56,722 bases of DNA from Myxococcota bacterium (GCA_036482635.1 JAZFWH010000208.1:1-56722), one strand, 5' to 3'; shown: positions 40,530 through 56,722, counted from the stretch's first letter. Made by a program: numbers and translations. Notes: generated by a model not told the origin, from the letters alone.

Positions 40530-40538
40530 CGGCATCCC

Positions 40539-40560: not shown

Positions 40561-40676
40561 ACGCCCCGAAGGCCCGGCAGCCGCGCTGCGTGTTCGCTGC
40601 ATCTTGTCACGCGGGCGCGGTTCCATACCCTGTTGGGCTTGCTCCGCCGGACCCGGAGCCCGCTGGAGACCCCCCG

Positions 40677-43600
40677 ATGAACGTCCTGCTCGAGATCGGC
40701 GCGATCGCCCTCGTCGCCGTGCTGGTGGCGCGCTTCGCCCGGCCGCCCTGGCGCAACCGCACCCTCAACCTGCTGAAGGTGGTCGTCACCTTCGAGGCCT
40801 TCCGGCTGCTGCTGACGCATCCGGTGACGATGGAGGACGGCAGCAAGGTCGTCGCGTGGCGGCTCGTGGTCGACACCGTCGGCGGGATCGAGCTCAGTAC
40901 GTTCCTGGTGTTCTGCGCCGCCGCGGCGGGCATCAAGTTCATCGGCATCCTCGCCTCGATGTACCGCTGGCAGGTCCTGCTGCGCGGGCAGGCGATCGAG
41001 CTGCCCTTCCGCCACATCTTCGGCTCGTTCCTGATCGGCCGCTTCATCGGAACCTTCCTGCCCAGCACCGCGGGCCTGGACGGCTACAAGCTGTACGACG
41101 CCGCGCGCTTCAGCGGCCGAACCGTCGAGGTCACCGCCACCACGGCGCTGGAGAAGGTGATCGGCGTCACCGGTATCTTCTCGTCGTTCCTGATCGCTCT
41201 GCCCTTCGGCTTCTCCCTGTTCGGTGACAACGCGGCCCTGATCGCTGGGGTCACCGTGCCCCTCTGCACCGGCCTGATCGGGGCACTCATGCTGGTGCTC
41301 TGGTTCCCCGGCATCATCCAGTGGTTCCTCGAGCACCTGCCCATCCCGGGCAAGGCGCGCCTCGAGGGCCTGGTGATGCGCGTCTCGCACTCGGCGGCCG
41401 CCTACCGCGGCCGGAAGCGGCTGGTGCTGCTGGCCTTCGCTCTCTCGTTCGTCGTCCACTTCACGACGGCCACCATGTACTGGTTCACCGCGCTGGCGAT
41501 CGGAGCCACGCAGGCCGAGTTCTGGCCCACCGTGCTCGGCTCTTCGGTGCAGATCCTGGCGACCGTCCTCTCGCCCTTCACCATCGCCGGCGAGGGGATC
41601 CGGGAGGCCGCGCAGTACTTCCTGCTCGGCAACGTGATCGGCCCCGCCAATGCGATCGTGTCGGCGGCCCTGGGCTTCTGGGCGGCCGAGGCGCTCACGA
41701 TGCTGGGGGCGTATTTCTGGTGGTTCCGGCCCAGGAACTACCACCCGGCCTTCTGCCGCGTGAACGGCGTCCAGGTCGACTACGCGGAGGCGGCGAAGGC
41801 GGCCGTCACGCTCGAGACGGACGAAGAGCGCGAGCGGCGCTCCGAGCGAGCGCTGTCGGCGCCGCCTCCCCTCTGGCAACGCGTGCGCCTGGGCGCCGCA
41901 CTCGGCCTGGCAAGCGGCCTGTGCGGCGGCCTGCTGATCGGCGCCGCCGAGTCGCTCGTGATCGCGCTGGGCGGCCTGGGCGGGGACGCCCAGGTGCTCT
42001 GGTACGGGCCCCTCGCCTACGCCGCGCTGCTGGGCGGACTCGGCTGCGCCGGCGGCGCGGCGCTGGCGGTCCTGCCGGTGGACCGCGAGGAAATCCGTGG
42101 CTGGACGCCCTCGCTGGTCCTGCTCGGCACGCTCCTGCCGTTCTCGCTGGCCATCTCGCTGTTCCGCATCCGCCGCGACGTGTTCCTCGAGCAGATGCCG
42201 CCGCTCCCGGTCCTGGCCGCGCTGCTGGGCGCCGCCGCGGCCGTGGCGCTGCTGCTCTTCCTGCTGGGCCCGCGCCTGTTCCGCACCCGCCTGGGCGACC
42301 TCGTGCGACCGCTCCCCGCGCTGGCCGCGCTGGGCGTCGTCGTCGCCGGCGGCGCCGTGGCGGGGCGCGTGCTGATGGGGAGCGGCGCCGATCGCCAGGC
42401 CCCGCCGCCGGTGCCCGCGGAGCTGCGCGAGCGGCCGAACGTGATCCTCGTGATGGTCGACACGCTGCGCGCCGACCACCTCTCCTGCTACGGCGCGCAG
42501 GACGTGAACACCCCGGCGCTGTGCAGCCTCGCCGGGGACGGCGGGGCGATCTTCGACGCCTACGCACACGCCTCCTGGACCAAGCCCTCGGCGGCGACGC
42601 TGCTCAGCTCGCTGCTGCCCTCGACCCACGGCGCCATCTCGAAGCCCGCGGCGCTCTCCGAGCAGGTGGAGATGCTCGCGGAGCCCATGCAGCGGAGGGG
42701 CTATGCGACGGGCGGCATCGTCTCCAACATCAACCTCGCACCGAGCTTCGGGTTCGACCAGGGCTACGACGAGTACCACTACCTGGCCCCCGACTACCTG
42801 GCCGGGGCGAAGGAGTCGTCCTCGAAGCTGATCCTCTACTCGATCGCGCGCGCGGTCTGGTTCAAGCGGAAGGGCGGCCTGCGAGTGGGCGACTTCTACC
42901 AGGACTCCGCCACCGTGAACGGCGTGGCCTTCGACTTCCTGGAGCGGCACCGCGACGCCCGCTTCTTCCTCTTCCTGCACTACATGGACCCGCACGACCC
43001 GTACTTCGTTCACCCGTACGACGGCCAGGCGATCGCGCGCGTGTCGAACCAGCACCCGGACGCCGCACTCGCCGCCGAGATGCGGCGGCTCTACGTCGGC
43101 GAGATCGAGTACCTCGACGCGAACTTCGCCGCCCTGCTCGAGAAGCTCCGCGAGCTGGACCTCTACGACGACACGCTGATCGCGCTGGTGGCCGATCACG
43201 GCGAGGAGTTCCAGGAGCACGACGGCTGGTGGCACGGACTCACCCTCTACGACGAGCAGATCCGCGTGCCCCTGCTGATCAAGTGGGGGGGGCGCGAGCG
43301 GTCGGTCGTGGGCGACGCCGGGGATCGCGTCGTCGGTCTGATCGACGTGGCGCCGACCCTGCTGGCCCGGGCCGGCGCCGAGATCCCGCCCGCCATGCAA
43401 GGCGTCGACCTGGCGGCCGAACCGCCGCCGGGAGATCGCATGGTCTTCGCCGAGGAGGACCACGAGGGCAACGTGCTGCGCGCCGTGCGCACCCGCGAGT
43501 GGAAGCTGATCGAGGTGATGGAGCAGCCGAGCCCGCGCGGCCTGAAGGCGCAGGAGCTCTACCACGTCGCCGAAGACCCGGGCGAGAGCCGCAATCTGCG

Positions 43601-43751
43601 GGCCGAGCGAGAGGAGATCGCGAGCGAGCTGCGCGCCCACGCCGAGGCCCAGGAGAAGCTCGCCAGGAGCCAGGCCACCGGCGCGGGCGAAGCGCGCCAG
43701 CTCACGGCCGCCGAGGAGGAGGCGCTCCGCGCGCTCGGCTACATCGACTAG
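40677..43751 (+). CDS. fusion protein: MprF-type flippase-like membrane domain (LPG_synthase_TM/UPF0104) + extra TM block + alkaline-phosphatase-superfamily (sulfatase-like) domain
   Basis: ATG at 40677 within track ORF 40590..43751. N-domain YRWQVLLRGQAIELPFRHIFGSFLIGRFIGTFLPSTAGLDGYKLYDA. C-domain VILVMVDTLRADHLSCYG...HASWTKPSAATLLSSLLPSTHG...LVADHGEEF. The sulfatase C/S-x-P-x-R position reads T-K-P-S-A. Confidence 0.8.
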   Translation: MNVLLEIGAIALVAVLVARFARPPWRNRTLNLLKVVVTFEAFRLLLTHPVTMEDGSKVVAWRLVVDTVGGIELSTFLVFCAAAAGIKFIGILASMYRWQVLLRGQAIELPFRHIFGSFLIGRFIGTFLPSTAGLDGYKLYDAARFSGRTVEVTATTALEKVIGVTGIFSSFLIALPFGFSLFGDNAALIAGVTVPLCTGLIGALMLVLWFPGIIQWFLEHLPIPGKARLEGLVMRVSHSAAAYRGRKRLVLLAFALSFVVHFTTATMYWFTALAIGATQAEFWPTVLGSSVQILATVLSPFTIAGEGIREAAQYFLLGNVIGPANAIVSAALGFWAAEALTMLGAYFWWFRPRNYHPAFCRVNGVQVDYAEAAKAAVTLETDEERERRSERALSAPPPLWQRVRLGAALGLASGLCGGLLIGAAESLVIALGGLGGDAQVLWYGPLAYAALLGGLGCAGGAALAVLPVDREEIRGWTPSLVLLGTLLPFSLAISLFRIRRDVFLEQMPPLPVLAALLGAAAAVALLLFLLGPRLFRTRLGDLVRPLPALAALGVVVAGGAVAGRVLMGSGADRQAPPPVPAELRERPNVILVMVDTLRADHLSCYGAQDVNTPALCSLAGDGGAIFDAYAHASWTKPSAATLLSSLLPSTHGAISKPAALSEQVEMLAEPMQRRGYATGGIVSNINLAPSFGFDQGYDEYHYLAPDYLAGAKESSSKLILYSIARAVWFKRKGGLRVGDFYQDSATVNGVAFDFLERHRDARFFLFLHYMDPHDPYFVHPYDGQAIARVSNQHPDAALAAEMRRLYVGEIEYLDANFAALLEKLRELDLYDDTLIALVADHGEEFQEHDGWWHGLTLYDEQIRVPLLIKWGGRERSVVGDAGDRVVGLIDVAPTLLARAGAEIPPAMQGVDLAAEPPPGDRMVFAEEDHEGNVLRAVRTREWKLIEVMEQPSPRGLKAQELYHVAEDPGESRNLRAEREEIASELRAHAEAQEKLARSQATGAGEARQLTAAEEEALRALGYID

Positions 43752-43788
43752 AGCCTCTCACGAACCGCCATCCACAGGCGCCCCCGCC
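43547..43788 (+). repeat. direct repeat copy A (3' 205 nt of the sulfatase-like CDS plus 37 nt downstream)
   Basis: Hand-aligned without gaps to 51033-51274 with 9 mismatches in 242 nt. Confidence 0.9.
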
Positions 43789-43807
43789 GATCGCGGCGGT
43801 GGGGCCC

Positions 43808-44812
43808 TCAGGCGGGAGACGCCTGATCCTTCCACATCGACTCCGCCAGGCGACGCAGCCCCTCCCCGATCGACACCGCGGGCTCGTAACCGAGGTCACG
43901 ACGGGCAGCGCGGATCTCGAACCAGTGCGCTGTCGATAGCTGGCGCGCGACGAAGCGAGTCAGCGGCGGCTCACTGCGGATCCGCAGCAGGCCGTAGACG
44001 AACTCGGCGAGCGCACCGATGCCGTAGGCGACGGACGACGGAATGTGCCGCGTCACCGGGGGCAGCCCAGCTGCGGCCAGGATACCGTTGGTGATCTCGG
44101 CGAGAGGCAGCGGCTCTCCGTTGCTGATGAAGTAGGCCTTGCCCGCACAGGCGGCGTGGGGTTCCAGACGATCCGCCGCAAGGATGTGGGCATCCGCTGC
44201 GTTGTCGATATAGACCGTGTCGATCATGTTGGACCGCTTGCCAATCAGGCACAGCCGCCCCGCCCGACCGCGGGCCACGATGCGGGGAATCAGATGGTTG
44301 TCGCCCGGACCCCAGATCAGATGGGGACGCAGGACCACGGTGCAGAGCTTCTCGCCGTTCGCCGCGAGCACTCTCTGCTCGGCAATTGCCTTGGTTCTCG
44401 GATAGTGAGCGGAAAACTCCTTCGCGTAGGGCAGCGACTCGTCACCGCCCTCGATGTCGCCGCCTGCGTGAACCACACTCGGCGTACTGGTGTACACGAG
44501 CTTCGTTACACCGTGAGCGCGGCAAGCCGCCAGCACGTTGTCGGTCCCGACGACATTGGTGCGGTGGTATTCCTCGTATGCGCCCCATACTCCCGGCAGC
44601 GCCGCCACGTGAAAGACCCGCTGGCAGCCTTCGACTGCGGCGGACACCGCCTCGGAGTCGCAGAGGTCTCCTCGTCGAACCTCGACGCCAAGCTTCTCGA
44701 GCTCCGGGTACGTGCCCCGGGAGAAGCTGCGCACGTCGTCGCCCCGTGCGAGCAGCCGCCGCACGATCGCACCACCGAGAAAGCCCCCTCCGCCGGTGAC
44801 GAGTGATCTCAT
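43808..44812 (-). CDS. oleD: OleD, NAD(P)H-dependent 2-alkyl-3-ketoalkanoate reductase (3beta-HSD/SDR-extended family)
   Basis: 334 aa. LVTGGGGFLGGAIVRRLL and YPRTK catalytic motifs. ATG overlaps the oleC TGA. Fourth gene of a colinear oleABCD set. Confidence 0.85.
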   Translation of the reverse strand: MRSLVTGGGGFLGGAIVRRLLARGDDVRSFSRGTYPELEKLGVEVRRGDLCDSEAVSAAVEGCQRVFHVAALPGVWGAYEEYHRTNVVGTDNVLAACRAHGVTKLVYTSTPSVVHAGGDIEGGDESLPYAKEFSAHYPRTKAIAEQRVLAANGEKLCTVVLRPHLIWGPGDNHLIPRIVARGRAGRLCLIGKRSNMIDTVYIDNAADAHILAADRLEPHAACAGKAYFISNGEPLPLAEITNGILAAAGLPPVTRHIPSSVAYGIGALAEFVYGLLRIRSEPPLTRFVARQLSTAHWFEIRAARRDLGYEPAVSIGEGLRRLAESMWKDQASPA

Positions 44813-46467
44813 GAGAGCTTTCGCGCCGCCCAGATGGCCAGCTTCTCGCGCCCGATCTTGGCATTGTGGCGGATGTCGACGGGGAATCCGCGGTGGTACA
44901 GCACGCAGCGGATGTCGCGGGTGTGCTCGTGCTCGGCGCCCAGCGCCAGCAGGTCACGCGTGAGCGTTGTGTCGGGCCGCACGCCCTTCTCGAGCTCCAC
45001 GCACAGCACCGGCCGGGTCTCTCCGTGGATCCGCGCTCCCACCAGTGCCGAACGATAGACCCTGGGATCCGCGTTGAAGACTGCCTCGCAGGGAACGGTG
45101 AAAAACGTGCGCGAAGTGGTTACCACGCGCTGGGTCTTGCGTCCGCAGAACCACAGCCGGCCCTGTTCGTCGAAACGGCCGAGGTCACCCATGCGATGGG
45201 AAAATCCTTCGCCCCGAGCGTCCCGGATCTTGGCCAATCTGGTGGCCCGCTCCCTTCGGAAGTAGGCGCGGGTGACCGGCGGACCTTTCACGACGATCTC
45301 CCCCACCTCGCCGGGAGGAACGCATAGGGCGTCGTCCCAGGTATCGATCGGACCGTCGTCGATGCGGATCAGGCTGACTCGCACAGGCGCCACCGGACGA
45401 CCTACGCAGATGCCTTCGCCTTGATCGCTTCGCTTGCGCGTTTCGCCCAGCACCTCGTCGCTGGCAATCGAGGCGACGGGCAGCGACTCGGTGGCGCCAT
45501 AGGGAGTGAAGATCTTTGCGTCCGACTCGAGCAGAGTCACGAAACGCTCCATTACCGTTGCGGAAACCGGCGCGCCGGCGGAGATCACCCGCCTGAGAGA
45601 AGGCAGCTTCACCCCGTGTTCCGCTCCATAGCGCCCCACGGTGTTGAGCAGGGCCGGCGAAGCGAACATGTTCGTGACACCGAAATCTTCGATCGCCTCG
45701 ATGATCTTCCGAGGGTCCACCCGCGCCGGGCGGGTCGGATCCATGTCGGGCACGATCGTGGTCATACCGAGCGCCGGATCGAAGAGTGCGAACAATGGGA
45801 AGGTAGGTAGGTCGATCTCCCCGGGACGGATGTCGTACAGTGTCCGGATCATCTCTACCTGGGCGGCGAAGTTGCCGTGGTCGTAGACCACGCCCTTGGG
45901 CACCCCCGTGCTGCCGCTGGTGAACACGATGGCCGCCACATCGCGCTCGCCGACCGGAGGAATCGGCTGCGGGGGCCGCTCGCGCCCGATTTCCTTCACC
46001 TGCGCGAGCGTATGGCCGCCCCAGAACAGGCGGCGTCCCAACGTGATCCGCGTCTTGATGGTCGCCCGGCCCCAGCCCAGAGCCACCCGTGCGGCGTGTG
46101 CCAGGGGGCTTCCGATGAAGGCCGCAGGTTCGGCCTCGCCCAGGCAAGTCGCGAGGCTTGCAAGGCCAATGCCCGGGTCGACCATGACCGGGACGGCGCC
46201 AGTCTTGAGCAGCGCGAAGGTGAGCGCAAAGAACTCCAGACTGGGGCGGACCATCAGGACCGTGCGCACACCGCGGCCCACACCCACCGCGTCCATGCCC
46301 CGAGCGATGAGATCGCTCTGGGCGTCGAGCTGGGCATAGGTGTAATGGGTGTAGCGGACCACGCCCTGCCGATCGCGGCCCTCGGGGTGGACGATGGCCA
46401 GCGCATGCGGCTGCTTTGCCGCCATCCGAGGCAGGAACGAGGCGATGCTGGCGAAGCTCTCGCTCAT
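44809..46467 (-). CDS. oleC: OleC, beta-lactone synthetase (ANL/AMP-dependent ligase superfamily)
   Basis: 552 aa. IVFTSGSTGVPKGV, YGATE, HRMGDLGRFDEQGRLWFCGRK, DIRHNAKIGREKL are typical of OleC-type 'fatty acid CoA ligase family' proteins. Overlaps oleB and oleD by 4 nt each. Confidence 0.85.
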   Translation of the reverse strand: MSESFASIASFLPRMAAKQPHALAIVHPEGRDRQGVVRYTHYTYAQLDAQSDLIARGMDAVGVGRGVRTVLMVRPSLEFFALTFALLKTGAVPVMVDPGIGLASLATCLGEAEPAAFIGSPLAHAARVALGWGRATIKTRITLGRRLFWGGHTLAQVKEIGRERPPQPIPPVGERDVAAIVFTSGSTGVPKGVVYDHGNFAAQVEMIRTLYDIRPGEIDLPTFPLFALFDPALGMTTIVPDMDPTRPARVDPRKIIEAIEDFGVTNMFASPALLNTVGRYGAEHGVKLPSLRRVISAGAPVSATVMERFVTLLESDAKIFTPYGATESLPVASIASDEVLGETRKRSDQGEGICVGRPVAPVRVSLIRIDDGPIDTWDDALCVPPGEVGEIVVKGPPVTRAYFRRERATRLAKIRDARGEGFSHRMGDLGRFDEQGRLWFCGRKTQRVVTTSRTFFTVPCEAVFNADPRVYRSALVGARIHGETRPVLCVELEKGVRPDTTLTRDLLALGAEHEHTRDIRCVLYHRGFPVDIRHNAKIGREKLAIWAARKLS

Positions 46468-47354
46468 TCGCTCGGGGGGTCGGCCAGGAATCGCTCGACC
46501 AGCGCGAGGATCTCGTCGCTCGCGTCTTCCAGCACGTAGTGGCCACAGTCGGGGAAGCGGTGCACCTCAGCGTCGGGAAGATGTTGCTGCCACACGTCGA
46601 GGAAGTGATGGTCGAACACGAAGTCCTTCTCGCCCCAGCAGATGAGCACCGGGGTGTCGGCAAACGACCCGAGCTTGCTCTCGACCTCGCTGATCAGATC
46701 GTAGCCACGGTCACCGGCCCGAAGAGGAATGTCCTGGACGAAGCGAAGCGTCGCGATGCGATTCTCCCAGGAGTCGTAGGGGGCGCAATAGGCGTCCCGC
46801 ACTTCCTTGGACAGGCGCCGTCGCGTGCAGCACACCCAGGCCGCGCCCCGGCTGAAGGCATTGAAGCGCCGGACCATGAACGCGGCGAACGATGTGTTGC
46901 GCACCCACCACAGCGCCGTCGGCAACTTCTTGGCTTTCGGCAGGTGGAAGGCGGCGGTATTGAGAAGCACCAGGCGGCGAATGCGATCGGGGTGACGCAC
47001 GGCCCAGGACATCCCGATCATGCCGCCCCAATCGTGCATCACCAGCGTCAGCTTCTGGTCGAGACCCAGGTCGTCCAAGAGTGCGTCGAGATCGTCGACC
47101 CGACGCTCGAGTGAGTACTCGTAGCGCGTGTCGTCGGGCTTGTCGGACAGGCCGCAACCGATGTGATCCGGAACGATGATCCGATACCGGTCGCGCAGGC
47201 CGCGCACCAGGTCGCGGTAGTAGAACGACCAGGTGGGGTTTCCGTGGAGCATGACGACCGGCTCGCCCTTGCCCTCGTCGAGATAGTGGTACCGCAACCC
47301 GCCGAGGTTGAAATGGCGGCCCTCGAAGGGATACAGCGAGGTCGAGACTCGCAT
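46464..47354 (-). CDS. oleB: OleB, beta-lactone decarboxylase (haloalkane-dehalogenase-like alpha/beta hydrolase)
   Basis: 296 aa. VVMLHGNPTWSFYYR, nucleophile motif VMHDWGG, C-terminal CGHYVLED. Confidence 0.85.
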   Translation of the reverse strand: MRVSTSLYPFEGRHFNLGGLRYHYLDEGKGEPVVMLHGNPTWSFYYRDLVRGLRDRYRIIVPDHIGCGLSDKPDDTRYEYSLERRVDDLDALLDDLGLDQKLTLVMHDWGGMIGMSWAVRHPDRIRRLVLLNTAAFHLPKAKKLPTALWWVRNTSFAAFMVRRFNAFSRGAAWVCCTRRRLSKEVRDAYCAPYDSWENRIATLRFVQDIPLRAGDRGYDLISEVESKLGSFADTPVLICWGEKDFVFDHHFLDVWQQHLPDAEVHRFPDCGHYVLEDASDEILALVERFLADPPSE

Positions 47355-47356
47355 TC

Positions 47357-48373
47357 CTACCAGAGGATGCCGGCCGCCGCACAGTTGATGCCGCTCCCGA
47401 TCCCACCCATCAGGACCTTGTCTCCCTTTTTGATGCGCCCCTCATCCAGGGCCTTCGAGAGCACTGTCGGCACACCGGCCGGGCCGATGTTGCCGAACTC
47501 GGGGTAGATGAGCAGGCACTTGTCGGGAGCGATGCCGAGGGTCTCGACGAGCTGGGAGGAGTGCACCTTGCTGATCTGGTGCATGGCGAACTCGTCGATA
47601 TCGTCACTGGACCAGCCCAGAAACTTCTGGCCCACCGACCAGGCCTTCGATGAAACCTCGAGGCCCGCGAGCAGGAGCTTTCTGGTATCGGTCTTCATCT
47701 CGTCGACCTGGCCGGTGCACAGCCGGTTGTGCGAGGTGGCAGCGACTTTGACCCCCCCCAGATAGCGCGGCGCTTCGGGGCTGAATTCCGAGCGCGTGAG
47801 CACCATCGCCGCCGCACCCGATCCGAGGGTGAGGGCGGCGAACTGCTCGCGAAACATCTTCTCGTCGCTATCTTCGCGATTGAGGCGTTCGATCGTCGTC
47901 TCGGTGATGTAGCGACTGCTCTCGCCGTCCACCACGAGCCCGTACTCGATCTCACCGCGCTCGATCATATTTCCGACGATGTCCATGCCGTTGAGAAAAC
48001 CCAGGCAGGCGTTGCCGACGTCGAAGTTGATGCAGTGCTCTCCGAGCTGGAGATTCCTGTGAACCAGACAGGCCACTGAAGGCTCGATGTAATCTCGACA
48101 TACAGATGTGTTGATGACAATCCCGATGCGATCCCGGTTGATGCCGGACTCCTCGATCGCCCGCTCGGCGGCCATGGAGGCGACCTCGCTCGGCTCTACT
48201 CCTGGATCCCAGAACCGCCTTGCGCTGATTCCGGCCAGCGCCTCGAGCATGCCCGGCCGGATGTCGAGACGGTCGAGAGTCGGCATGAGCTGTTCGTCGA
48301 GCTCAGCGGAGGTGATCCGATGTGGCGCGTCGTAGTGGCGAACGCTGGCGATCGAAACGTGCTCGAACTTCAA
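47357..48373 (-). CDS. oleA: OleA, thiolase-fold (FabH-like) head-to-head acyl-CoA condensing enzyme
   Basis: Track ORF 47357..48469. TTG at 48373 lies 8 nt after GGGGAGGA and gives MKFEHVSIASVRHYDAPHRITSAELDEQL, an OleA-like N-terminus. Active-site motif NACLGF. Ends ...GGIGSGINCAAAGILW. Confidence 0.85.
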   Translation of the reverse strand: MKFEHVSIASVRHYDAPHRITSAELDEQLMPTLDRLDIRPGMLEALAGISARRFWDPGVEPSEVASMAAERAIEESGINRDRIGIVINTSVCRDYIEPSVACLVHRNLQLGEHCINFDVGNACLGFLNGMDIVGNMIERGEIEYGLVVDGESSRYITETTIERLNREDSDEKMFREQFAALTLGSGAAAMVLTRSEFSPEAPRYLGGVKVAATSHNRLCTGQVDEMKTDTRKLLLAGLEVSSKAWSVGQKFLGWSSDDIDEFAMHQISKVHSSQLVETLGIAPDKCLLIYPEFGNIGPAGVPTVLSKALDEGRIKKGDKVLMGGIGSGINCAAAGILW

Positions 48374-48689
48374 GATGAATGTCCTCCCCGGCGCAGGTCG
48401 GTTCAACAGGGAACGGCCGAGGAGGGATCGGCGCGTCGTGGACCAATCACGTATCGGCGAATTCGCCACCGGCGTTAGCCTTCTCGCAGCGGCTGCGATG
48501 AGACGGACCAGACCGAGTGTATTTCCCCCCGCTTTGACAGAACGAAAGAATTCTGACCCGCTCCGATCAGATCACGTCAGGATCTGGTCGGGACCTCATC
48601 GCGGAGGCGAAGCAACCGAACCCGCCATTGGGGATGATTCAGCGTCTCGATGTGTCCAACTCCGGGCACGCTCCAGAGCCGCGCGGAGG

Positions 48690-48872
48690 GACCGACCGCG
48701 CGCCCCTGCAGCCGCACCGCGTTGAGACCTTCAAGTTCAGCACCGATCCGAACCTCGAGGACCAAGATGGCCGACATTGTCGGTCTGCACCTCGATCCAC
48801 CGGAGCGTGCCCTCGTCCTCTGCGTCGACGAGAAGTCTCAAATCCAAGCTCTCAACCGGACGCAGCCTCGAA
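48690..48872 (+). mobile_element. internal relic of an IS630-family transposase gene (frameshifted, both ends missing)
   Basis: [22 protein letters not shown] (frame of ORF 48628) then, after a 1-nt shift near 48765, [35 protein letters not shown] (frame of ORF 48650). This matches the conserved IS630 block ...[48 protein letters not shown]. Confidence 0.7.
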
Positions 48873-48939
48873 ACCCTGTTGCAGTGACGATCCGCCCCCA
48901 GCGCGAAACACGGTGCGCCGCGCAAGAGTCACATCGCAG

Positions 48940-49353
48940 CGCAGGGAGAGGGAGACCCTGGCCATCGTCCGCTACCACCAGGTCGTCACCCGCAAGTCCA
49001 ACGACGAGGTCTTTCACGACCAGATCGGATACTGGACGTGGGATCCCGCCACCAGGATGATCGCGCAGTCCGTCAACATCCCGAGAGTTGTCGCAGTGCT
49101 CGCCGGAGGTTCGTTCGAAGGCGACGCGAGCGGATCCGAGGTTGTCCTCGACGTGTATGCGAAGAAAGGTGATCCCGACTGGGGGATCATCGAGTCGCCC
49201 TTCATGCGAGACAACGCGAGCACGGTGGCGCTCGAACACCGCCTCGATGTCAGCGGCGACTGCATGAGCTACTCGGAGACGACGTCGCTCGACATCTACG
49301 GCCGCAAGTTCGATCACAACGACACGAAAAAGCTGACACGGACCTCGGGCTGA
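48940..49353 (+). pseudogene. 5'-truncated heme-binding beta-barrel (nitrobindin/DUF1794, FABP-like) gene
   Basis: [37 protein letters not shown]...LEHRLDVSGDCMSYSETTSLDIYGRKFDHNDTKKL resembles the C-terminal ~130 aa of this family. The usual N-terminal ~35 aa are replaced by IS630-relic sequence. Confidence 0.5.
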
Positions 49354-49365
49354 CCCCAGCTACTT

Positions 49366-49446
49366 CGCCTACGGTCCCAAGAACCTGAGATCCCCGGGGG
49401 TGTCGTCATGACCGGAGGTTCTCGGACCTCGAATCCCAGTTGAAGC
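49366..49446 (+). repeat. structured intergenic repeat, copy 1 (81 bp)
   Basis: CGCCTACGGTCCCAAGAACCTGAGATCCCCGGGGG...ACCGGAGGTTCTCGGACCTCGAATCCCAGTTGAAGC. Shares its ends and core with copies at 51334 and 52892. Internal inverted repeat GGTCC-CA-AGAACC / GGTTCT-C-GGACC. Confidence 0.85.
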
Positions 49447-49503
49447 ACGAGCTCACGGCCGCCGAGGAGGAGGCGCTCCGCGCGCTCGGCTACATCGACT
49501 AGA
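49447..49503 (+). repeat. third, short copy of the sulfatase-like gene 3' end (57 bp, includes the stop codon)
   Basis: ACGAGCTCACGGCCGCCGAGGAGGAGGCGCTCCGCGCGCTCGGCTACATCGACTAGA is identical to the corresponding part of copy B (51033-51274). It carries copy B's CACGAG variant rather than copy A's CGCCAG. Confidence 0.85.
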
Positions 49504-49614
49504 AGCTGTCTCAGAATCCGGTATCGACAGCTACCCAGATTGCCCGTGGAGCCGTGACCAGCCGCCAGGGGGTTGCCCGAGCGCTCCGCTCCCGCTGTGC
49601 GGGCGCCTCGCGCG

Positions 49615-50232
49615 CTATTTCGACACCCGGGTGATCTTCGAGCCCTGGATCCCCACGCCCCCCATCAGGCCCTTCTGGTCGAAGATGAAGGCGTAGACGT
49701 CCTGGGTGAGCGTCGTGCTGGTGAGCGACTTCGCCCCGCCCTCGTCCAAGACGACCAGGCTCGGGCCCGCGCCGAGCTCGAAGCCCCCGCTCTTGTCGAG
49801 GTAAGCGAGCGCGGAGTCGCTCATGAAGAAGAGTGCGTAGCCAAAGACCTGCGCGCCGGCCTGGAAGCCGTAGGAGGCCGCCACGGAGTTGTAGAAGCCG
49901 GCGACCTTGCCACCGCGGAAGAGCGCCCCCTCGCCGAGCTGGCCGCCGAACATGAAGCCCGCCTTCACCATCTTGGGGAAGACCAGGACGCCATGGGCCT
50001 TGTCCCGCAGCAGACGCGCGCCGGGGTTCTTGCGGTAGAGTTTCTCGAGGGTGGCGCGGGCGTCGCGCTCGATCGACTGGCCGCTGGCGGCCGTGGCCGG
50101 CACCGGTGCGGCCGGGCCGAGGACGAGCGTTGCAAGCAGCAGGGCCACCACGGGCCCCGAGAGCCGGGTGATCACGGGTGCTCCTCTCCAGGGGCGTCCG
50201 CTCCGGAAGCCCTTCTCCATGCCGCCCCTCAT
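49615..50232 (-). CDS. secreted SYLF (DUF500/Ysc84-like) domain protein
   Basis: Last 205 aa of track ORF 49615..51183. Signal-like LSGPVVALLLATLVLGPAAPVPATAAS. SYLF pattern VLVFPKMVKAGFMFGGQLGEGALF...YGFQAGAQVFGYALFFMSDSAL...FELGAGPSLVV. ATG at 50232 overlaps the upstream TGA. Confidence 0.75.
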   Translation of the reverse strand: MRGGMEKGFRSGRPWRGAPVITRLSGPVVALLLATLVLGPAAPVPATAASGQSIERDARATLEKLYRKNPGARLLRDKAHGVLVFPKMVKAGFMFGGQLGEGALFRGGKVAGFYNSVAASYGFQAGAQVFGYALFFMSDSALAYLDKSGGFELGAGPSLVVLDEGGAKSLTSTTLTQDVYAFIFDQKGLMGGVGIQGSKITRVSK

Positions 50233-50705
50233 TGCTCGATCACCGGGATCGATGCGGCGAGCTCGTAGAACATGACTGCGTAGATCTTGGTCTCGATCTG
50301 GTAGAAGCGCATCAGCGTGCGGCCCGGCAGCGCCTCGGCGAAGAGCTCCACGTACGAGTGCCGGAGCGCCACGCGGTCGCGTTGGACGGCGAGGTAGGTG
50401 TCGACGAGCTTGCGCGCCTCGTCGTCCTTCGTGCTCCCGAAGGTCCGCTTGTAGTCGTCGATCACCTGGAGGAGGCGATCGCCAACGACCGTGAGCTCCG
50501 CCTGGTAGCGGTCGTAGACTGGCCAGAACGCGCGGGCCTGCTCGTCGCTGAGCGCGAGGTTCACGGCGACGAGCGCCTTCTTGTTGCTGCGGAGCGTGTC
50601 CCGCAGGATTTCCATGCTGGCTTCGTCCGCCTCCCCGGCGCCGGCCGGCGCCGCGGCAAAGACGAACGGCAGCAGAACGGCGAGGACCCAGCTGGTTTTC
50701 GACAT
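50229..50705 (-). CDS. secreted hypothetical protein (helical), co-operonic with the SYLF gene
   Basis: ATG at 50705 is preceded by AAGAGGAAG. Signal peptide MSKTSWVLAVLLPFVFAAAPAGA. No family recognised. Confidence 0.6.
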   Translation of the reverse strand: MSKTSWVLAVLLPFVFAAAPAGAGEADEASMEILRDTLRSNKKALVAVNLALSDEQARAFWPVYDRYQAELTVVGDRLLQVIDDYKRTFGSTKDDEARKLVDTYLAVQRDRVALRHSYVELFAEALPGRTLMRFYQIETKIYAVMFYELAASIPVIEQ

Positions 50706-50862
50706 GGTTGGTGTCTTCCTCTTTTCCACTCCGGGCCTGCCCGTACCCCCACCGAGGCTCGAAGCGGACGGAGCACACGCTATCTCCGCGAGCCAGCGTC
50801 AGCCAGCTCCGGGCCCGACCACCCCGCCGCTGCTGGCAGCGCTGGCGCGCGGCCCGGTACCA

Positions 50863-50893
50863 AACTCCGCTCGGCTGCGCGTCGCGGCGCGCG
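50863..50893. repeat. dispersed copy of the 19985/20034 repeat core
   Basis: AACTCCGCTCGGCTGCGCGTCGCGGCGCGCG versus AACTCCGCTCGGCTGCGCCTCGCTGCGCGC. The first 18 nt are identical. Confidence 0.6.
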
Positions 50894-50908
50894 AGCTGGG
50901 CCCGCTTG

Positions 50909-51040
50909 CTAGCGGCGGGAGGCGTGGACCTCCGGAAGCCGCTCGGCCCAGGGGTAGGCCTCCCCGAGCTGCCCGGCCACGCGCAGCAGCAGATCTTCGC
51001 GGCCCGTCGCGGCCACCAGCTGCACGCCGATCGGCGCAGG
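50909..51040 (-). pseudogene. C-terminal relic of an amidase-signature-family gene
   Basis: Minus-strand translation PAPIGVQLVAATGREDLLLRVAGQLGEAYPWAERLPEVHASRR* resembles the conserved amidase C-terminus (LPVGLQLIG..F.E..LLR.A..LE). The frame is cut at 51040, where repeat copy B begins. Confidence 0.45.
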
Positions 51041-51274
51041 AGCTCTACCACGTCGCGGAAGACCCGGGCGAGAGCCGCAATCTGCGGGCCGAGCGAGAGC
51101 AGATCGCGAGCGAGCTGCGCGCCCACGCCGAGGCCCAGGAGAAGCTCGCCAAGAGCCAGGCCACCGGCACCGGCGAAGCGCACGAGCTCACGGCCGCCGA
51201 GGAGGAGGCGCTCCGCGCGCTCGGCTACATCGACTAGAGCCTGTTACGAACCGCCATCCACAGGCGCCCCCGCC
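51033..51274 (+). repeat. direct repeat copy B of the sulfatase-like gene 3' end (orphan fragment)
   Basis: Encodes ELYHVAEDPGESRNLRAEREQIASELRAHAEAQEKLAKSQATGTGEAHELTAAEEEALRALGYID* with no upstream gene body. 233 of 242 nt identical to 43547-43788. Confidence 0.9.
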
Positions 51275-51333
51275 CCGAGGAGAACGTCCTCTGCGGCGTG
51301 GGCCAGGGGGGCTGGAAACCTTCCTCGCCCCCC

Positions 51334-51429
51334 CGCCTACGGTCCTAAGAGTCCTAAGAACCCGAGATCCGCGGGGAAGTTGTCATCACCGGAGGTTCTC
51401 GGACCTCGAAACCCGGTTGAAGTGACTAT
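51334..51429 (+). repeat. structured intergenic repeat, copy 2 (96 bp)
   Basis: ~90% identical to copy 3 by hand alignment (10 mismatches in 96). Relative to copy 1 it contains an extra AAGAGTCC(T/C) duplication. Confidence 0.85.
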
Positions 51430-51430
51430 A

Positions 51431-51673
51431 TCCCCCAACATGGTGGAGCAGGGCGAGTCGCCCTGTCTCCCGCCCGCCCGCCTCGAGGAGCTCGGCTACA
51501 AGATTCTCGCCTATCCGCTCACCCTGCTGTCGAGCGCCGCCCGGGCGATGCGCGACGCCCCGACCGCCCTGCGCGTCGGGGCTCCCCCCGCCGATGCGCC
51601 GCTCGACTTCTCGGAGCTCCAGGAGGTCGTCGGCTTCGACCACTACCACGCTGAGCGAACCCGCTACGAGTGA
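51431..51673 (+). pseudogene. 3' relic (~80 aa) of an isocitrate-lyase/PEP-mutase-family gene
   Basis: SPNMVEQGESPCLPPARLEELGYKILAYPLTLLSSAARAMRDA...FSELQEVVGFDHYHAERTRYE* matches the C-terminal ...ANMVEGGKTP.L...EL.ELGY.I.IYP... region of 2-methylisocitrate-lyase-like proteins. Homology starts exactly at the right end of repeat copy 2. Confidence 0.55.
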
Positions 51674-51944
51674 GTGGTCCGCGTTGCGAGAGGATACGGA
51701 CGACACCCTCTGCGCATCGATCCAACCACACGTGGTCTGGAGCGAGCGGTCATTCCAGTCGCGGAATTCTGCTGGGACAGCCAGGTCGTTCCTCGGGAGG
51801 TCTTTCGCTGCGCAGCCGGGATGTCGCGATCTCACAAGACTTTTACATTTCTTGCCAGCCCCCGGGTCGAATCCTTCTATAGACTTCCACCTCTCTGTCC
51901 CCCCCCAAAAGAGACAGACGAGAGAATCGAAGCACGCTGATCCG

Positions 51945-52862
51945 ATGGCTCGCCTTCCGGCATCTTCTCGCGGCCCGGGCGATCCGCGCGCCGTGCGGGA
52001 GTTCGACTTGGAAGCCAGTCTGGAGCCTGGGAGCATCGAGGGAAGCGGTCGCATTACCGCGACCGCCGCTCGCCGGGGAACCATCTTGAAATACAAGGCC
52101 GACCGCGGTCCCATCGCCTACGTGGTGGCGGTCTTCATCCTTCGCCTGGCAATCTGGGCCCTGGCGACGCCGTTGATCTGCGCGATGAGTGTAATTCCGC
52201 TGACGGTGCTCGGCATATTCATCGCCCCAATCAACCACCACCATCAGCACGTCAACTCGTTCCGCGCCCCATGGCTGAACCGACTCTACGACCTGGTGTT
52301 ATCCCTGCAGTGCGGCGTCGGGCCCTATAGCTGGGTGCTCCACCATAACCTCGGACATCATGTCAACTACCTGAACCAGCCTCCCCACGAGCGTCCCGAC
52401 GAATCCCGTTGGACACGAGCCGACGGTACGCAGATGGGTCGCCTCGAGTACTCCATCGATCTGCTCCTCCACCATCAGATCGACATTGTCCGCGTCGGGC
52501 TGCACCATCCGAGATACTTCCGCTACTTCCTGCTGATGAAGCTGCCACTCTGGGGCTTGATCGGTGTCGGGCTCTGGCTTCGCCCGCTGGAGACCGTGCT
52601 CGTCTTTCTGGTGCCGGCCTTCTTCACGCTCTTTCACACGATATGGGCCACCTACGAGCACCATGCGGGCTGTCTGTCGAACGACCACCTCCATGCCAGC
52701 CGCAGCCGCGACAATCGCCTCTACAACGCGCTGACTGGCAACCTCGGGCTCCACACCGCCCACCACAAGCGCCCCGGATTGCATTGGTCGCTCTTGCCCG
52801 TCCTGCACGAAAAGATCCGGGACCAGATTCCAAAGGAACAGATCCTCGAGACGTTCTGGTAG
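51945..52862 (+). CDS. membrane fatty-acid desaturase family protein (di-iron, three His boxes)
   Basis: ATG at 51945 within track ORF 51594..52862, 305 aa. His boxes NHHHQH, HNLGHH and HTAHH. Local GC is ~55% by spot count. Confidence 0.75.
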   Translation: MARLPASSRGPGDPRAVREFDLEASLEPGSIEGSGRITATAARRGTILKYKADRGPIAYVVAVFILRLAIWALATPLICAMSVIPLTVLGIFIAPINHHHQHVNSFRAPWLNRLYDLVLSLQCGVGPYSWVLHHNLGHHVNYLNQPPHERPDESRWTRADGTQMGRLEYSIDLLLHHQIDIVRVGLHHPRYFRYFLLMKLPLWGLIGVGLWLRPLETVLVFLVPAFFTLFHTIWATYEHHAGCLSNDHLHASRSRDNRLYNALTGNLGLHTAHHKRPGLHWSLLPVLHEKIRDQIPKEQILETFW

Positions 52863-52891
52863 TCGCATGCTCGAGGGTGGATTCGAGGTTT

Positions 52892-52987
52892 CGCCTACAG
52901 TCCAAAGAGTCCCAAGAACCTGAGATCCCCGGGGGAGCTGTCACAACCGGAGGTTCTCGGACCTCGAAACCCGGTTGAAGCGACTAT
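52892..52987 (+). repeat. structured intergenic repeat, copy 3 (96 bp)
   Basis: CGCCTACAGTCCAAAGAGTCCCAAGAACCTGAGATCCCCGGGGGAGCTGTCACAACCGGAGGTTCTCGGACCTCGAAACCCGGTTGAAGCGACTAT. Lies between the desaturase stop and the P450 stop. Confidence 0.85.
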
Positions 52988-53013
52988 CCGCATTCAGTTG
53001 GATTCGTGCCTTG

Positions 53014-54258
53014 TCATCGGACCGCCGCGTTCGCGTCCCTCATGCGGAATCGGATGGGGAGGTGTTTGATCCCCCCGACAAACGTAGACGCGAGCCGTTC
53101 CGGTGGGGAGGCGAGCTCCAAGTGATCCAGGCGCGGGAGGATCTCCTCGCAGAAGATACGAATCTCCATGCGGGCGAGCGAAGCACCGAGGCAAAAGTGC
53201 TCACCGATGCCGAACGCTAGGTGGGGATTCGGCGTTCGATCGACGCGAAACTCGAAGGGTTCGGCGAAGACGTCTTCGTCTCGGTTTGCCGAGGGGTAGT
53301 AGAGGCACAGCGTATCGCCCTCGGAGATGGCGGCTCCGCCCAGTGTCAGGGGCTGATTCGCTGTGCGGAGGAAGTGACTGACGGGTGTGGTCCAACGCAG
53401 GAACTCTTCGGCAGCGCTGGTTGCGAGTGTCGGGTCGGCCAGGAGCTTTGCGCACTCTTCTGGGCGTTCGATGAGTGCGAGCATGCCTCCGGAGAGCGCG
53501 TTGCGGGTCGTCTCGTGGCCCGCAGTGAGGAACAGGAAGGCGTATCCGAGACGATCCGCCTCACCCATGGGTTCGCCGTCCAGGGTGGCCCGCGCCAGCA
53601 GCGTGGCGATGTCCTCGCGAGGATCGGTGCGACGCTCGTCAAGGATCTGCTTGAAGAACCCCACGAGTTCGCTCGCGGCGGTCACACCGGACTTGTCGGA
53701 GCGCCGGAACTCCCGGTCCTCAAAGCCGAACAGTTCGTTGGTGCGCTCTAGGACGAAGGCTTCGTCGGCGGGTGCAATGCCGAGCAGGTGGCCGATCAGG
53801 CGGAGCGGAAGCGGTGCGGCGATCTCGCTGACAAAGTCGCATTCGTCTCGGTCCGCCAGCCGGTCCACGAGCGAGCGAGCGCAGTCACGAAGGCGCTCCT
53901 CGATCGCCTTGAGATTGCGGGGCGTAAACCAGGGGGAGGCGATCTGTCGATAGGACCGATGCTCGGGTGGGTCCATCTGGATCAAATTGGGAGGCAGCGC
54001 CGCGGCCAAGCTTTCGGCGGCAGCGCGCGTGATCATGATATTGCGGCCCCGGCTCGAGAATTGATCGGGTTGCATGGAGATCGCCCGAATGTCTCGATGC
54101 TTGGTAACCGCCCAGAACGGCTCGAATCCCACCGGCTCGACCCACGCGACGGGGCGTTCGCGCCGGAGCCGCGTCCAGATCTCGTGCGGGTATCCGTGTG
54201 CGGCATAGGAATCGGCATCGACCAGCCGCTGGGCGTCGGCATCGGCGAGGCGGGTCAC
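53014..54258 (-). CDS. cytochrome P450
   Basis: 414 aa. I-helix LTAGHETT, ExxR (EEFLRW), heme loop FGIGEHFCLGASLAR. GTG start overlaps the upstream TGA. Confidence 0.92.
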   Translation of the reverse strand: MTRLADADAQRLVDADSYAAHGYPHEIWTRLRRERPVAWVEPVGFEPFWAVTKHRDIRAISMQPDQFSSRGRNIMITRAAAESLAAALPPNLIQMDPPEHRSYRQIASPWFTPRNLKAIEERLRDCARSLVDRLADRDECDFVSEIAAPLPLRLIGHLLGIAPADEAFVLERTNELFGFEDREFRRSDKSGVTAASELVGFFKQILDERRTDPREDIATLLARATLDGEPMGEADRLGYAFLFLTAGHETTRNALSGGMLALIERPEECAKLLADPTLATSAAEEFLRWTTPVSHFLRTANQPLTLGGAAISEGDTLCLYYPSANRDEDVFAEPFEFRVDRTPNPHLAFGIGEHFCLGASLARMEIRIFCEEILPRLDHLELASPPERLASTFVGGIKHLPIRFRMRDANAAVR

Positions 54259-55148: not shown

Positions 55149-55150
55149 GT

Positions 55151-56338: not shown

Positions 56339-56416
56339 GGATGTCGTCCTCGGTGGCTTCGCAGGATCGCCGCGGCGAACCCTCACCCGCCAGGGGGCGA
56401 GGGTCGAGAATCCAAT

Positions 56417-56452
56417 TTTGAGTTAATACTCATTTTTGATTTTATACTCAAA
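56417..56452. promoter_or_regulatory. AT-rich dyad/direct-repeat operator candidate in the divergent TetR / catabolic-operon promoter region
   Basis: TTTGAGTTAATACTCATTTTTGATTTTATACTCAAA. Contains the dyad TGAGT-TAAT-ACTCA, ATACTCA repeated 18 bp later, and outer arms TTTGAGT/ACTCAAA. Very AT-rich relative to the surrounding DNA. Confidence 0.5.
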
Positions 56453-56490
56453 TCAGATAAGGTCAAGTGGCAGAGAGCCCTGGCCGGCGC

Positions 56491-56722
56491 ATGCGCACCA
56501 CAAAGCCTTCAAAGTCCGAGCGGACCCGGGACGCCATCCTCGAAGCGGCCGAAGGGCTCTTTTCCGAATCGGGATTCGACAGGACGTCCCTGGATGCGAT
56601 CGGCGAGCGGGCGGGAATCTTGGGTACCGCCATCCTCTACCAATTCCCGAACAAGCGAGCCCTGTACGAAGCGGTCGTTTCCGAACTTTTTGGGTGGATG
56701 TTCGGGAGCATCCGGGAAGCCC
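56491..56722 (+). CDS. TetR/AcrR-family transcriptional regulator (partial, runs off window end)
   Basis: MRTTKPSKSERTRDAILEAAEGLFSESGFDRTSLDAIGERAGILGTAILYQFPNKRALYEAV is a canonical TetR N-terminal HTH. GTG at 56467 is an alternative start. Not in the ORF track because the frame is open-ended. Confidence 0.85.
   Translation, partial: MRTTKPSKSERTRDAILEAAEGLFSESGFDRTSLDAIGERAGILGTAILYQFPNKRALYEAVVSELFGWMFGSIREA

What the first reader, a model, noticed from the sequence alone, without database searches (positions are those of the whole stretch)
43808..48373. Complete colinear oleABCD long-chain olefin / beta-lactone pathway
Four tightly coupled minus-strand genes have the order and families of the Ole pathway:
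- a FabH-like thiolase with active-site NACLGF and an OleA-type N-terminus
- a haloalkane-dehalogenase-like hydrolase (OleB)
- an ANL-superfamily enzyme (OleC)
- a 3beta-HSD-type SDR (OleD)

The junctions are a 2-nt gap followed by two ATGA overlaps.

Established biochemistry: OleA condenses two acyl-CoAs head-to-head. OleD reduces the beta-keto acid. OleC forms a beta-lactone. OleB decarboxylates it to a cis-olefin.

The cluster lies between a lipid flippase-like fusion gene and a desaturase/P450 region, inside the direct-repeat-bounded segment. Both the product chain length and any retention of the beta-lactone intermediate are open questions.
Basis: partly seen in the sequence, partly recalled or inferred. 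Interest (0 to 1): 0.6.

Follow-up and report, generated by a model that had tools for sequence, protein, structure and literature searches.

The report
Ordinary oleABCD olefin operon, laterally acquired
This is a complete, intact copy of the well-known four-gene bacterial pathway that joins two fatty acids head to head into a long-chain membrane hydrocarbon; it is ordinary, except that this uncultured Myxococcota bacterium carries it inside a roughly 15-kb acquired DNA island.

Summary
Four minus-strand genes lie at 43808-48373 in the order oleA, oleB, oleC, oleD. The junctions are TAG-ga-ATG, ATGA and ATGA.

- **OleA:** scores 393-396 bits against the crystallised Xanthomonas OleA and at most 94 bits against any FabH. 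It keeps Glu97, Cys123, His265 and Asn295.
- **OleB:** keeps the subfamily-III haloalkane-dehalogenase pentad (N39, D108, W109, D244, H272).
- **OleC:** keeps the adenylate-forming enzyme motifs. It scores 723 bits on NCBI's olefin beta-lactone synthetase model.
- **OleD:** keeps GxxGxxG and Ser/Tyr/Lys. It scores 481 bits on the OleD model.

The same gene order recurs in dozens of genomes, including Xanthomonas and Stenotrophomonas. OleA relatives occur in 121 of 400 sampled genomes of the same phylum. This is therefore a new member of a known kind, and with OleB intact the end product should be an olefin rather than a retained beta-lactone.

The one extra point is context. The operon has lower GC3 (0.79-0.85, against 0.91-0.95 in host genes). 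It sits in a roughly 15.4-kb insert between two conserved host genes, and that insert was not found in four relatives examined. The neighbouring desaturase and P450 genes are not conserved partners of ole.

This scan has noted ole clusters in at least 105 other genomes.

The parts
47357..48373 (-). oleA: acyl-CoA:acyl-CoA head-to-head (non-decarboxylative Claisen) condensing thiolase, 338 aa, TTG start
   Evidence: - PDB: Xanthomonas OleA chains score 393-396 bits; the best FabH scores 94.
- NCBIfam: PRK09258 scores 438 against a cut-off of 285; the fabH model scores 113 against 292.
- E97, C123, H265 and N295 are conserved.
- It falls in the OleA clade of the tree.
- GGGGAGGA lies upstream of the TTG.
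46464..47354 (-). oleB: alpha/beta-hydrolase of haloalkane-dehalogenase subfamily III; beta-lactone decarboxylase, 296 aa
   Evidence: - Pfam Abhydrolase_1.
- The best solved relative is DhmeA, an HLD-III enzyme (8ooh/8ckp), at 150 bits.
- The pentad N39, D108, W109, D244, H272 is conserved, and there is no deviation at any of 48 near-invariant columns across 61 sequences (the window's plus 60 from the loci).
- It is 50-70% identical to the gene between oleA and oleC in other genomes.
44809..46467 (-). oleC: ANL-superfamily beta-lactone synthetase, 552 aa
   Evidence: - NCBIfam: olefin beta-lactone synthetase models score 722.8 (Xanthomonas type) and 639.2 (Shewanella type). PRK09274 scores 753.5 against a cut-off of 478. 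The next unrelated family scores 178.8.
- Motifs TSGSTG 183-188, YGATE 323-327, D428, R443 and K537 are conserved, with no deviation at 97 near-invariant columns.
43808..44812 (-). oleD: 3-beta-HSD-type extended SDR; NADPH-dependent 2-alkyl-3-oxoalkanoate reductase, 334 aa
   Evidence: - NCBIfam: OleD models score 480.9 and 445.9; the next family (HpnA) scores 161.
- Pfam 3Beta_HSD, E-value 1.2e-59.
- G7, G10, G13, S109, Y137 and K141 are conserved.
48374..48731 (-). oleA upstream leader and probable promoter region
   Evidence: It is 98.9% identical, together with oleA, oleB and part of oleC, to an independent metagenome contig (L090). The likeness stops at 48731. No sigma-70 consensus match was found.
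43752..43807 (.). 56-nt convergent intergenic spacer with a GC-rich hairpin, between the oleD stop and the stop of the host sulfatase-fusion gene
   Evidence: Fold energy is -38.3 kcal/mol, z-score -2.1.
43547..43788 (+). Left copy of the 242-bp direct repeat: the last 205 nt of the host sulfatase-fusion gene plus 37 nt. The host-to-island boundary lies at 43788/43789.
50909..51274 (+). Internal scar: a 127-nt copy of the host amidase 3' end (50909-51035) abutting the second copy of the sulfatase tail (51033-51274). It separates the ole-bearing module from the desaturase/P450 module.
   Evidence: The amidase-tail copy is 96.9% identical to C334:2553-2679. The sulfatase-tail copy is 96.3% identical to 43547-43788.
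43789..56722 (.). The part of the lower-GC3 island that lies in the window. It continues into contig C334 up to about position 2552.
   Evidence: - GC3 by gene.
- 79-nt overlap between the end of C208 and the start of C334, with a TetR frame that reads on across the join.
- Relatives go from the sulfatase fusion to C334-like genes, with none of the window's downstream genes in the stretches fetched.

Best explanation
This is a functional, canonical oleABCD operon, transcribed right to left from upstream of 48373.

**Pathway (inferred from the established Xanthomonas biochemistry).**
1. OleA condenses two fatty acyl-CoAs head to head into a 2-alkyl-3-ketoacid.
2. OleD reduces it with NADPH to the 2-alkyl-3-hydroxy acid.
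3. OleC uses ATP to close it into a cis-beta-lactone.
4. OleB decarboxylates the lactone to a long-chain cis-alkene, which stays in the membrane.

**Shown here.** Gene identity, gene order and intactness of all catalytic residues.

**Inferred.**
- The chemistry itself.
- The product: most likely C25-C33 mono-olefins built from the cell's ordinary, possibly iso-branched, fatty acyl-CoAs.

**How it got here.** The operon was acquired laterally as part of a roughly 15.4-kb island inserted between a conserved sulfatase-fusion gene and a conserved amidase gene.
For: **Anatomy.** Four same-strand genes with a 2-nt gap and two ATGA overlaps.

**Family assignment.**
- NCBIfam and Pfam scores.
- OleA scores 393-396 bits against solved Xanthomonas OleA and at most 94 bits against FabH.
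- OleB's best solved relative is the HLD-III enzyme DhmeA. Its pentad, as defined in PMC10503415, is conserved.

**Conserved columns.** The window's OleB, OleC and OleD match the consensus at all 48, 97 and 54 near-invariant columns (alignments of 61, 52 and 44 sequences, the window's own included). OleA deviates only at two non-catalytic columns, A244 and K319.

**Synteny.** The A-B-C-D order holds in most of 80 loci, including Xanthomonas and Stenotrophomonas. It also holds in the closest metagenomic relatives, which share 72-99% OleA identity.

**Olefin versus lactone.** Presence of oleB marks olefin producers; its absence marks beta-lactone producers (PMC7064751).

**Island.**
- ole GC3 is 0.79-0.85, against 0.91-0.95 in host genes.
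- Four relatives keep gpsA, feoB, the lipoprotein gene and the sulfatase fusion, then carry C334-type genes and none of the window's downstream genes.
- The C208 and C334 contigs join.
- OleA was found in 0 of 40 relatives and in 1 of 10 genomes of the same family, but in 121 of 400 genomes of the phylum.
Against: - There are no expression or lipid data.
- OleC and OleD score below the narrow curated equivalog cut-offs: 722.8 against 900, and 480.9 against 580.
- No sigma-70-type promoter match was found upstream.
- An exact-match scan for the oleD/host junction in metagenome contigs found nothing.
Confidence: 0.9

Rival explanations
1. The cluster makes a retained beta-lactone (or the hydroxy acid) as its end product. 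The hydrolase would then not act as a decarboxylase.
For: OleA, OleC and OleD are shared with beta-lactone natural-product pathways (PMC7064751). No curated OleB-specific model exists. The best NCBIfam hit for the hydrolase is haloalkane dehalogenase at 177.5 bits, below the cut-off of 241.
Against: - Known beta-lactone clusters lack oleB altogether.
- Here the hydrolase sits in the canonical slot and overlaps oleC by ATGA.
- It keeps the full pentad and every near-invariant column of 60 OleB sequences from other ole loci.
- It is 50-53% identical to the Xanthomonas and Stenotrophomonas OleB.
Confidence: 0.03
2. The operon is real DNA but does not belong to this genome. The contig would be a metagenome mis-join at the 242-bp repeat, or the bin would be contaminated.
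For: - GC3 drops sharply at 43789.
- Repeats of 242 bp and 127 bp lie in the region.
- OleA is rare in the family.
Against: - Two separate contigs change from host-like to island-like composition at the two genes that lie next to each other, or nearly so, in relatives: the sulfatase fusion on C208 and the amidase on C334.
- The island interior carries 96-97% copies of both host gene tails, fused to each other.
- A TetR reading frame reads on across the C208-C334 overlap.
Confidence: 0.05
3. The operon is a silent passenger: intact in sequence but not expressed, in a decaying mosaic region.
For: The stretch just upstream (48470-51030) is full of gene fragments and repeat copies. No consensus promoter was found.
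Against: - All four frames are open, with no deviation at conserved columns.
- A 98.9% identical copy that includes the 358-nt leader occurs in an independent sample.
Confidence: 0.05

Closest known systems
OleABCD of Xanthomonas campestris / Stenotrophomonas maltophilia (head-to-head long-chain olefin pathway)
   Same: - The same four families in the same order.
- The same catalytic residues: Xc OleA Glu117, Cys143, His285 and Asn315 correspond to E97, C123, H265 and N295 here.
- OleC and OleD score higher on the Xanthomonas-type NCBIfam models than on the Shewanella-type ones.
- Identity to the X. arboricola, X. maliensis and Stenotrophomonas proteins is 50-60%.
   Different: - The genes here are contiguous and translationally coupled. 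The Xanthomonas and Stenotrophomonas loci have 1-3 kb of other DNA between some ole genes.
- The host is an uncultured Myxococcota bacterium.
- The OleC and OleD scores are below the narrow equivalog cut-offs.
ole clusters of other Myxococcota (for example Plesiocystis pacifica SIR-1, reported to contain ole genes in PMC3098273, citing Sukovich et al. 2010)
   Same: The same phylum. The nearest OleA proteins, at 72-83% identity, are labelled Myxococcota or Myxococcales MAGs and carry the same tight oleABCD cassette.
   Different: - Flanking genes differ in every case. DNA likeness to L086 and L089 stops at the cassette ends.
- In this genome's own family the cassette was found in only 1 of 10 sampled genomes, and in 0 of 24 in a separate sample.
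oleACD-type beta-lactone natural-product clusters (lipstatin, nocardiolactone)
   Same: They share the OleA-, OleC- and OleD-type enzymes and the beta-lactone intermediate.
   Different: Those clusters lack oleB and often use a heterodimeric OleA (LstA/LstB). Here there is a single OleA and an intact OleB.

Membership tests
OleA (thiolase superfamily, KAS III-like head-to-head condensing enzyme) | Catalytic Cys-His-Asn, plus the OleA-specific glutamate base (Xc Glu117) in the RDYxEPS loop | tested here: met
   E97, C123, H265 and N295 are invariant in 81 aligned OleA sequences and present in the window protein. They align with the Xanthomonas OleA chain. The numbering offset of 20 follows the 358-residue PDB constructs.
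OleA (thiolase superfamily, KAS III-like head-to-head condensing enzyme) | Closer to characterised OleA than to FabH or other KAS III enzymes | tested here: met
   - 393-396 bits against Xanthomonas OleA structures; at most 94 against any FabH.
- PRK09258 scores 438 against a cut-off of 285; fabH TIGR00747 scores 113 against a cut-off of 292.
- In the tree, the branch separating the OleA clade from this genome's own KAS III paralogues has SH-aLRT 100.
OleA (thiolase superfamily, KAS III-like head-to-head condensing enzyme) | Condenses two long-chain acyl-CoAs without decarboxylation | not testable with these tools
   This needs an enzyme assay.
OleB (HLD subfamily III beta-lactone decarboxylase) | Alpha/beta-hydrolase with the HLD-III pentad Asn, Asp (nucleophile), Trp, Asp (acid), His (base) | tested here: met
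   N39, D108, W109, D244 and H272 align with the DhmeA pentad residues (N63, D129, W130, D258, H286 in PMC10503415). They are near-invariant in the 61 aligned OleB sequences.
OleB (HLD subfamily III beta-lactone decarboxylase) | Encoded within an ole cluster, next to oleC | tested here: met
   It lies between oleA and oleC and overlaps oleC by ATGA. The orthologue occupies the same slot in most loci.
OleB (HLD subfamily III beta-lactone decarboxylase) | Passes a curated family-specific model | tested here: inconclusive
   No OleB-named model appeared. The best NCBIfam hit, haloalkane dehalogenase PRK03592, scores 177.5 against a cut-off of 241.
OleC (ANL-superfamily olefin beta-lactone synthetase) | Adenylate-forming core motifs: TSGSTGxPKG, YGxTE, the invariant Asp, the hinge Arg and the C-terminal Lys | tested here: met
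   T183-G188, Y323-E327, D428, R443 and K537 are all conserved.
OleC (ANL-superfamily olefin beta-lactone synthetase) | Scores as an olefin beta-lactone synthetase rather than an acyl-CoA ligase or NRPS A domain | tested here: inconclusive
   - NF045786 scores 722.8 and NF045785 scores 639.2. These are far above any other named family (next 178.8) but below their narrow cut-offs of 900 and 850.
- PRK09274 scores 753.5, above its cut-off of 478.
- Identity to syntenic OleC is 47-62%.
OleD (3-beta-HSD-type SDR, 2-alkyl-3-oxoalkanoate reductase) | Extended-SDR Rossmann motif GxxGxxG and the Ser/Tyr/Lys catalytic set | tested here: met
   G7, G10, G13, S109, Y137 and K141 are conserved in the 44 aligned OleD sequences. 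Pfam 3Beta_HSD, E-value 1.2e-59.
OleD (3-beta-HSD-type SDR, 2-alkyl-3-oxoalkanoate reductase) | Scores as OleD rather than another SDR | tested here: inconclusive
   NF042422 scores 480.9 and NF042423 scores 445.9. The next family (HpnA) scores 161, but both OleD scores are below the cut-off of 580.
oleABCD operon | All four genes co-linear on one strand | tested here: met
   The same order occurs in most of 80 loci.
oleABCD operon | The organism makes long-chain olefins | not testable with these tools
   The organism is an uncultured MAG. This needs heterologous expression and GC-MS.

The most novel reading that the evidence does not exclude
The ole cassette is one cargo module of a recombination hot spot downstream of the sulfatase-fusion gene.

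**Present layout.** Sulfatase tail, ole module, amidase tail, sulfatase tail, desaturase/P450/ECH/TetR/DXS module, amidase.

**What the layout suggests.** Two alternative islands from related strains were stacked in tandem by one homologous and one illegitimate crossover. A short structured repeat marks the module borders.

**A stronger version.** The co-resident desaturase, P450 and crotonase genes tailor the Ole hydrocarbon or its precursors into a modified lipid.
Probability: 0.15. Interest if true: 0.4.

Novelty: new member of a known kind. Interest (0 to 1): 0.13.

Why it matters
It adds one more intact and very compact oleABCD cassette, from an uncultured Myxococcota lineage. The cassette is 4.6 kb with no intervening genes. 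It could serve as a convenient fragment for heterologous olefin production, or for widening the set of tested OleA specificities.

It does not change what is known about the pathway. The context shows that ole cassettes move as self-contained four-gene units between genomes of this phylum. That is consistent with the patchy distribution already described for ole genes.

Tried and rejected
- **Junction in other assemblies.** An exact-match scan of metagenome contigs for the oleD/host junction (32 nt) found nothing.
- **Promoter.** The sigma-70 scan gave no site in 43400-49000. The terminator-like sites found were not more than expected from shuffles.
- **Conserved partners.** I tested whether the sulfatase fusion, nitrobindin-like ORF, desaturase, P450, ECH or amidohydrolase accompany ole elsewhere. 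None hit within about 8 kb of oleA in 80 loci. They are rejected as conserved parts of the system.
- **FA_hydroxylase.** This gene sits beside oleA in the 83%-identical relative L089. The window has no such gene, and the rest of the genome gives only a weak 25% match.
- **Pfa-type PUFA synthase.** Such a synthase could feed OleA as in Shewanella. The ketosynthase-bearing frames in the genome are at most 879 aa. None was seen, but the genome is only 92% complete.
- **The long minus-strand ORF 39642-43640 (1332 aa).** It is spurious. The real gene is the plus-strand 40590-43751, with GC3 0.95 and Pfam hits.
- **Structure prediction.** Not run, because sequence-level evidence was already decisive.
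Full report
**1. Observation**

- oleD 43808-44812
- oleC 44809-46467
- oleB 46464-47354
- oleA 47357-48373

The longest oleA frame starts at a GTG at 48469. All 120 listed homologues cover 90-94% of that frame, and nearly all are 338 aa. The TTG at 48373 is preceded by GGGGAGGA.

The junctions read as described: TAG-ga-ATG, gaATGAgc and ctcATGAga. A 56-nt spacer with a GC-rich hairpin separates the oleD stop from the stop of a convergent plus-strand gene.

**2. Identity of the four proteins**

- **OleA.**
  - It scores 393-396 bits against the solved Xanthomonas enzymes (3fk5, 3row, 4ku5, the 5vx series), aligned end to end. The best FabH scores 94 bits. That these entries are the X. campestris/oryzae OleA is my own knowledge; it agrees with the crystallographic papers cited in PMC7064751.
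  - NCBIfam PRK09258 scores 438 against a cut-off of 285. The fabH model scores 113 against 292.
- **OleB.**
  - It is an Abhydrolase_1 protein.
  - PMC10503415 places X. campestris OleB in that subfamily and defines the pentad.
- **OleC.**
  - It scores 722.8 and 639.2 bits on NCBI's two olefin beta-lactone synthetase models.
  - It scores 753.5 on PRK09274, whose cut-off is 478.
  - The next unrelated family scores 178.8.
- **OleD.**
  - It scores 480.9 and 445.9 on the two OleD models.
  - The next family scores 161.

The OleC and OleD scores fall below the narrow equivalog cut-offs. I read that as distance from the Xanthomonas and Shewanella clades, not as a different family.

**3. Catalytic residues**

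I aligned each window protein with its counterparts extracted from the 80 loci fetched. The alignments hold 81, 61, 52 and 44 sequences for OleA, OleB, OleC and OleD, counting the window's own. I then listed the columns conserved in at least 97% of sequences.

- OleB, OleC and OleD deviate at none of 48, 97 and 54 such columns.
- OleA deviates at two of 65, A244 and K319, neither of which is catalytic.

Residues present:
- **OleA:** E97, C123, H265, N295, corresponding to Xc E117, C143, H285, N315.
- **OleB:** N39, D108, W109, D244, H272.
- **OleC:** TSGSTG 183-188, YGATE 323-327, D428, R443, K537.
- **OleD:** G7, G10, G13, S109, Y137, K141.

**4. Comparative context**

A pattern scan of one genome per species found at least 594 OleA relatives. 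The best 80 loci come from Myxococcota, Acidobacteriota, Gemmatimonadota, Thermodesulfobacteriota and many Xanthomonadales. Most show oleA-oleB-oleC-oleD in that order. The window's proteins are 47-70% identical to theirs, including X. arboricola, X. maliensis and three Stenotrophomonas species.

A maximum-likelihood tree puts the window's OleA in the OleA clade. The genome's own KAS III paralogues lie far outside it (SH-aLRT 100). Within the clade it falls in an 11-member group of metagenome proteins, two of which are labelled Myxococcota or Myxococcales.

The closest relatives carry the same tight cassette:
- L086: 72% OleA identity.
- L089: 83%.
- L090: 99%. Its DNA is 98.9% identical over 3.8 kb, including 358 nt upstream of oleA.

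In L086 and L089 the flanking genes are different, and DNA likeness stops at the cassette ends.

**5. Distribution**

OleA relatives at E no greater than 1e-80 occur in 121 of 400 sampled genomes of the phylum, spread over 78 of 254 genera (genus count includes this genome). In this genome's own family they occur in only 1 of 10, and in 0 of 40 family and order relatives in a separate sample.

Ole genes in a myxobacterium (Plesiocystis pacifica) have been on record since 2010 (PMC3098273). This scan has noted ole clusters in at least 105 other genomes.

**6. How it got here**

*Composition.* GC3 is 0.91-0.95 in gpsA, feoB and the sulfatase fusion. It is 0.79-0.85 in the ole genes and 0.69-0.81 in the desaturase, P450, ECH and amidohydrolase genes.

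*The host neighbour.* The LPG_synthase_TM plus sulfatase fusion is a conserved gene, found in 11 of 15 family genomes.

*Synteny in relatives.* Four relatives keep the order feoB, lipoprotein gene, sulfatase fusion, three of them with gpsA ahead of it in the stretch fetched. They carry none of the window's downstream genes in the stretches fetched. What follows in them matches contig C334 of this genome from about position 2553.

*The contig join.*
- The last 79 nt of the window match the first 79 nt of C334 at 97.5%.
- A TetR frame reads on across the join.
- C334:1-2552 is lower-GC and encodes the TetR C-terminus and a DXS. Host-like composition resumes with an amidase gene.

*Size.* The insert therefore runs from 43789 to C334:~2552, about 15.4 kb.

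*Internal scar.* Inside the insert, a 127-nt copy of the amidase tail (50909-51035, 96.9% identical) abuts the second 242-nt copy of the sulfatase tail (51033-51274, 96.3% identical). The layout is: sulfatase tail, ole module, amidase tail, sulfatase tail, second module, amidase.

*Inference.* Two islands from related strains, both sited between these two genes, were stacked in tandem. This is an inference and is not shown. A fourth relative, G013, has about 6 kb of other genes at the same site. The site is therefore variable in the family.

**7. Function**

With OleB intact and coupled to OleC, the end product should be an olefin. Clusters that stop at the beta-lactone lack oleB (PMC7064751).

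No Pfa-type megasynthase was seen. The substrates are therefore probably ordinary fatty acyl-CoAs. Chain length and branching cannot be read from the sequence.

None of the neighbouring genes recurs beside ole in other genomes. I do not count them as part of the system.

**8. Verdict**

This is an ordinary, well-understood pathway, and it counts as a new member of a known kind. Interest is low.

Noticed in passing
window 56644-56722 and contig C334:1-79 of the same genome: - The window's contig end overlaps the start of contig C334 by 79 nt (97.5% identical).
- A TetR-family frame reads on across the join.
- C334:548-2485 (minus strand) encodes a DXS (1-deoxy-D-xylulose-5-phosphate synthase) with island-like GC3 of 0.80.
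- Host-like composition resumes at the amidase gene, C334:2556-4013.
   Followed up: partly
window 50909-51035 and 51033-51274; also 49442-49530: - A 127-nt copy of the host amidase 3' end is fused directly to a 242-nt copy of the host sulfatase-fusion 3' end.
- A third, shorter sulfatase-tail copy lies at 49442-49530.
- The layout is sulfatase tail, module, amidase tail, sulfatase tail, module, amidase. It looks like two alternative islands stacked in tandem.
   Followed up: partly
L007 (Desulfatiglandales MAG) and L010 (Desulfobacteraceae MAG): These loci have oleA directly followed by oleC and oleD. No oleB-like gene was found in the DNA fetched around oleA (8 kb each side in L007, less in L010). 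They could be beta-lactone producers, or oleB may lie elsewhere in the genome.
   Followed up: no
L103 (relative G013), the 6 kb downstream of its sulfatase-fusion gene: A different insert occupies the same site in a family relative: a PEP-CTERM-type protein and a CHASE2 adenylate/guanylate cyclase. The site is therefore variable in the family.
   Followed up: partly
window 19985-20022, 20034-20071 and 50855-50896: A 38-nt sequence occurs twice, perfectly, 49 nt apart near 20 kb. A 76-93% copy lies in the fragment-rich stretch upstream of the second sulfatase tail.
   Followed up: no
window 49357-49452, 51334-51429, 52892-52987: Three copies of a roughly 96-nt repeat (73-90% identical in register to the copy at 51334-51429) lie at module borders inside the island. 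No further copy was found in this genome assembly.
   Followed up: partly
window 39642-43640, minus strand: A 1332-aa open frame lies opposite the real sulfatase-fusion gene. It is an artefact of the high GC content. The coding strand is plus, with GC3 of 0.95.
   Followed up: yes
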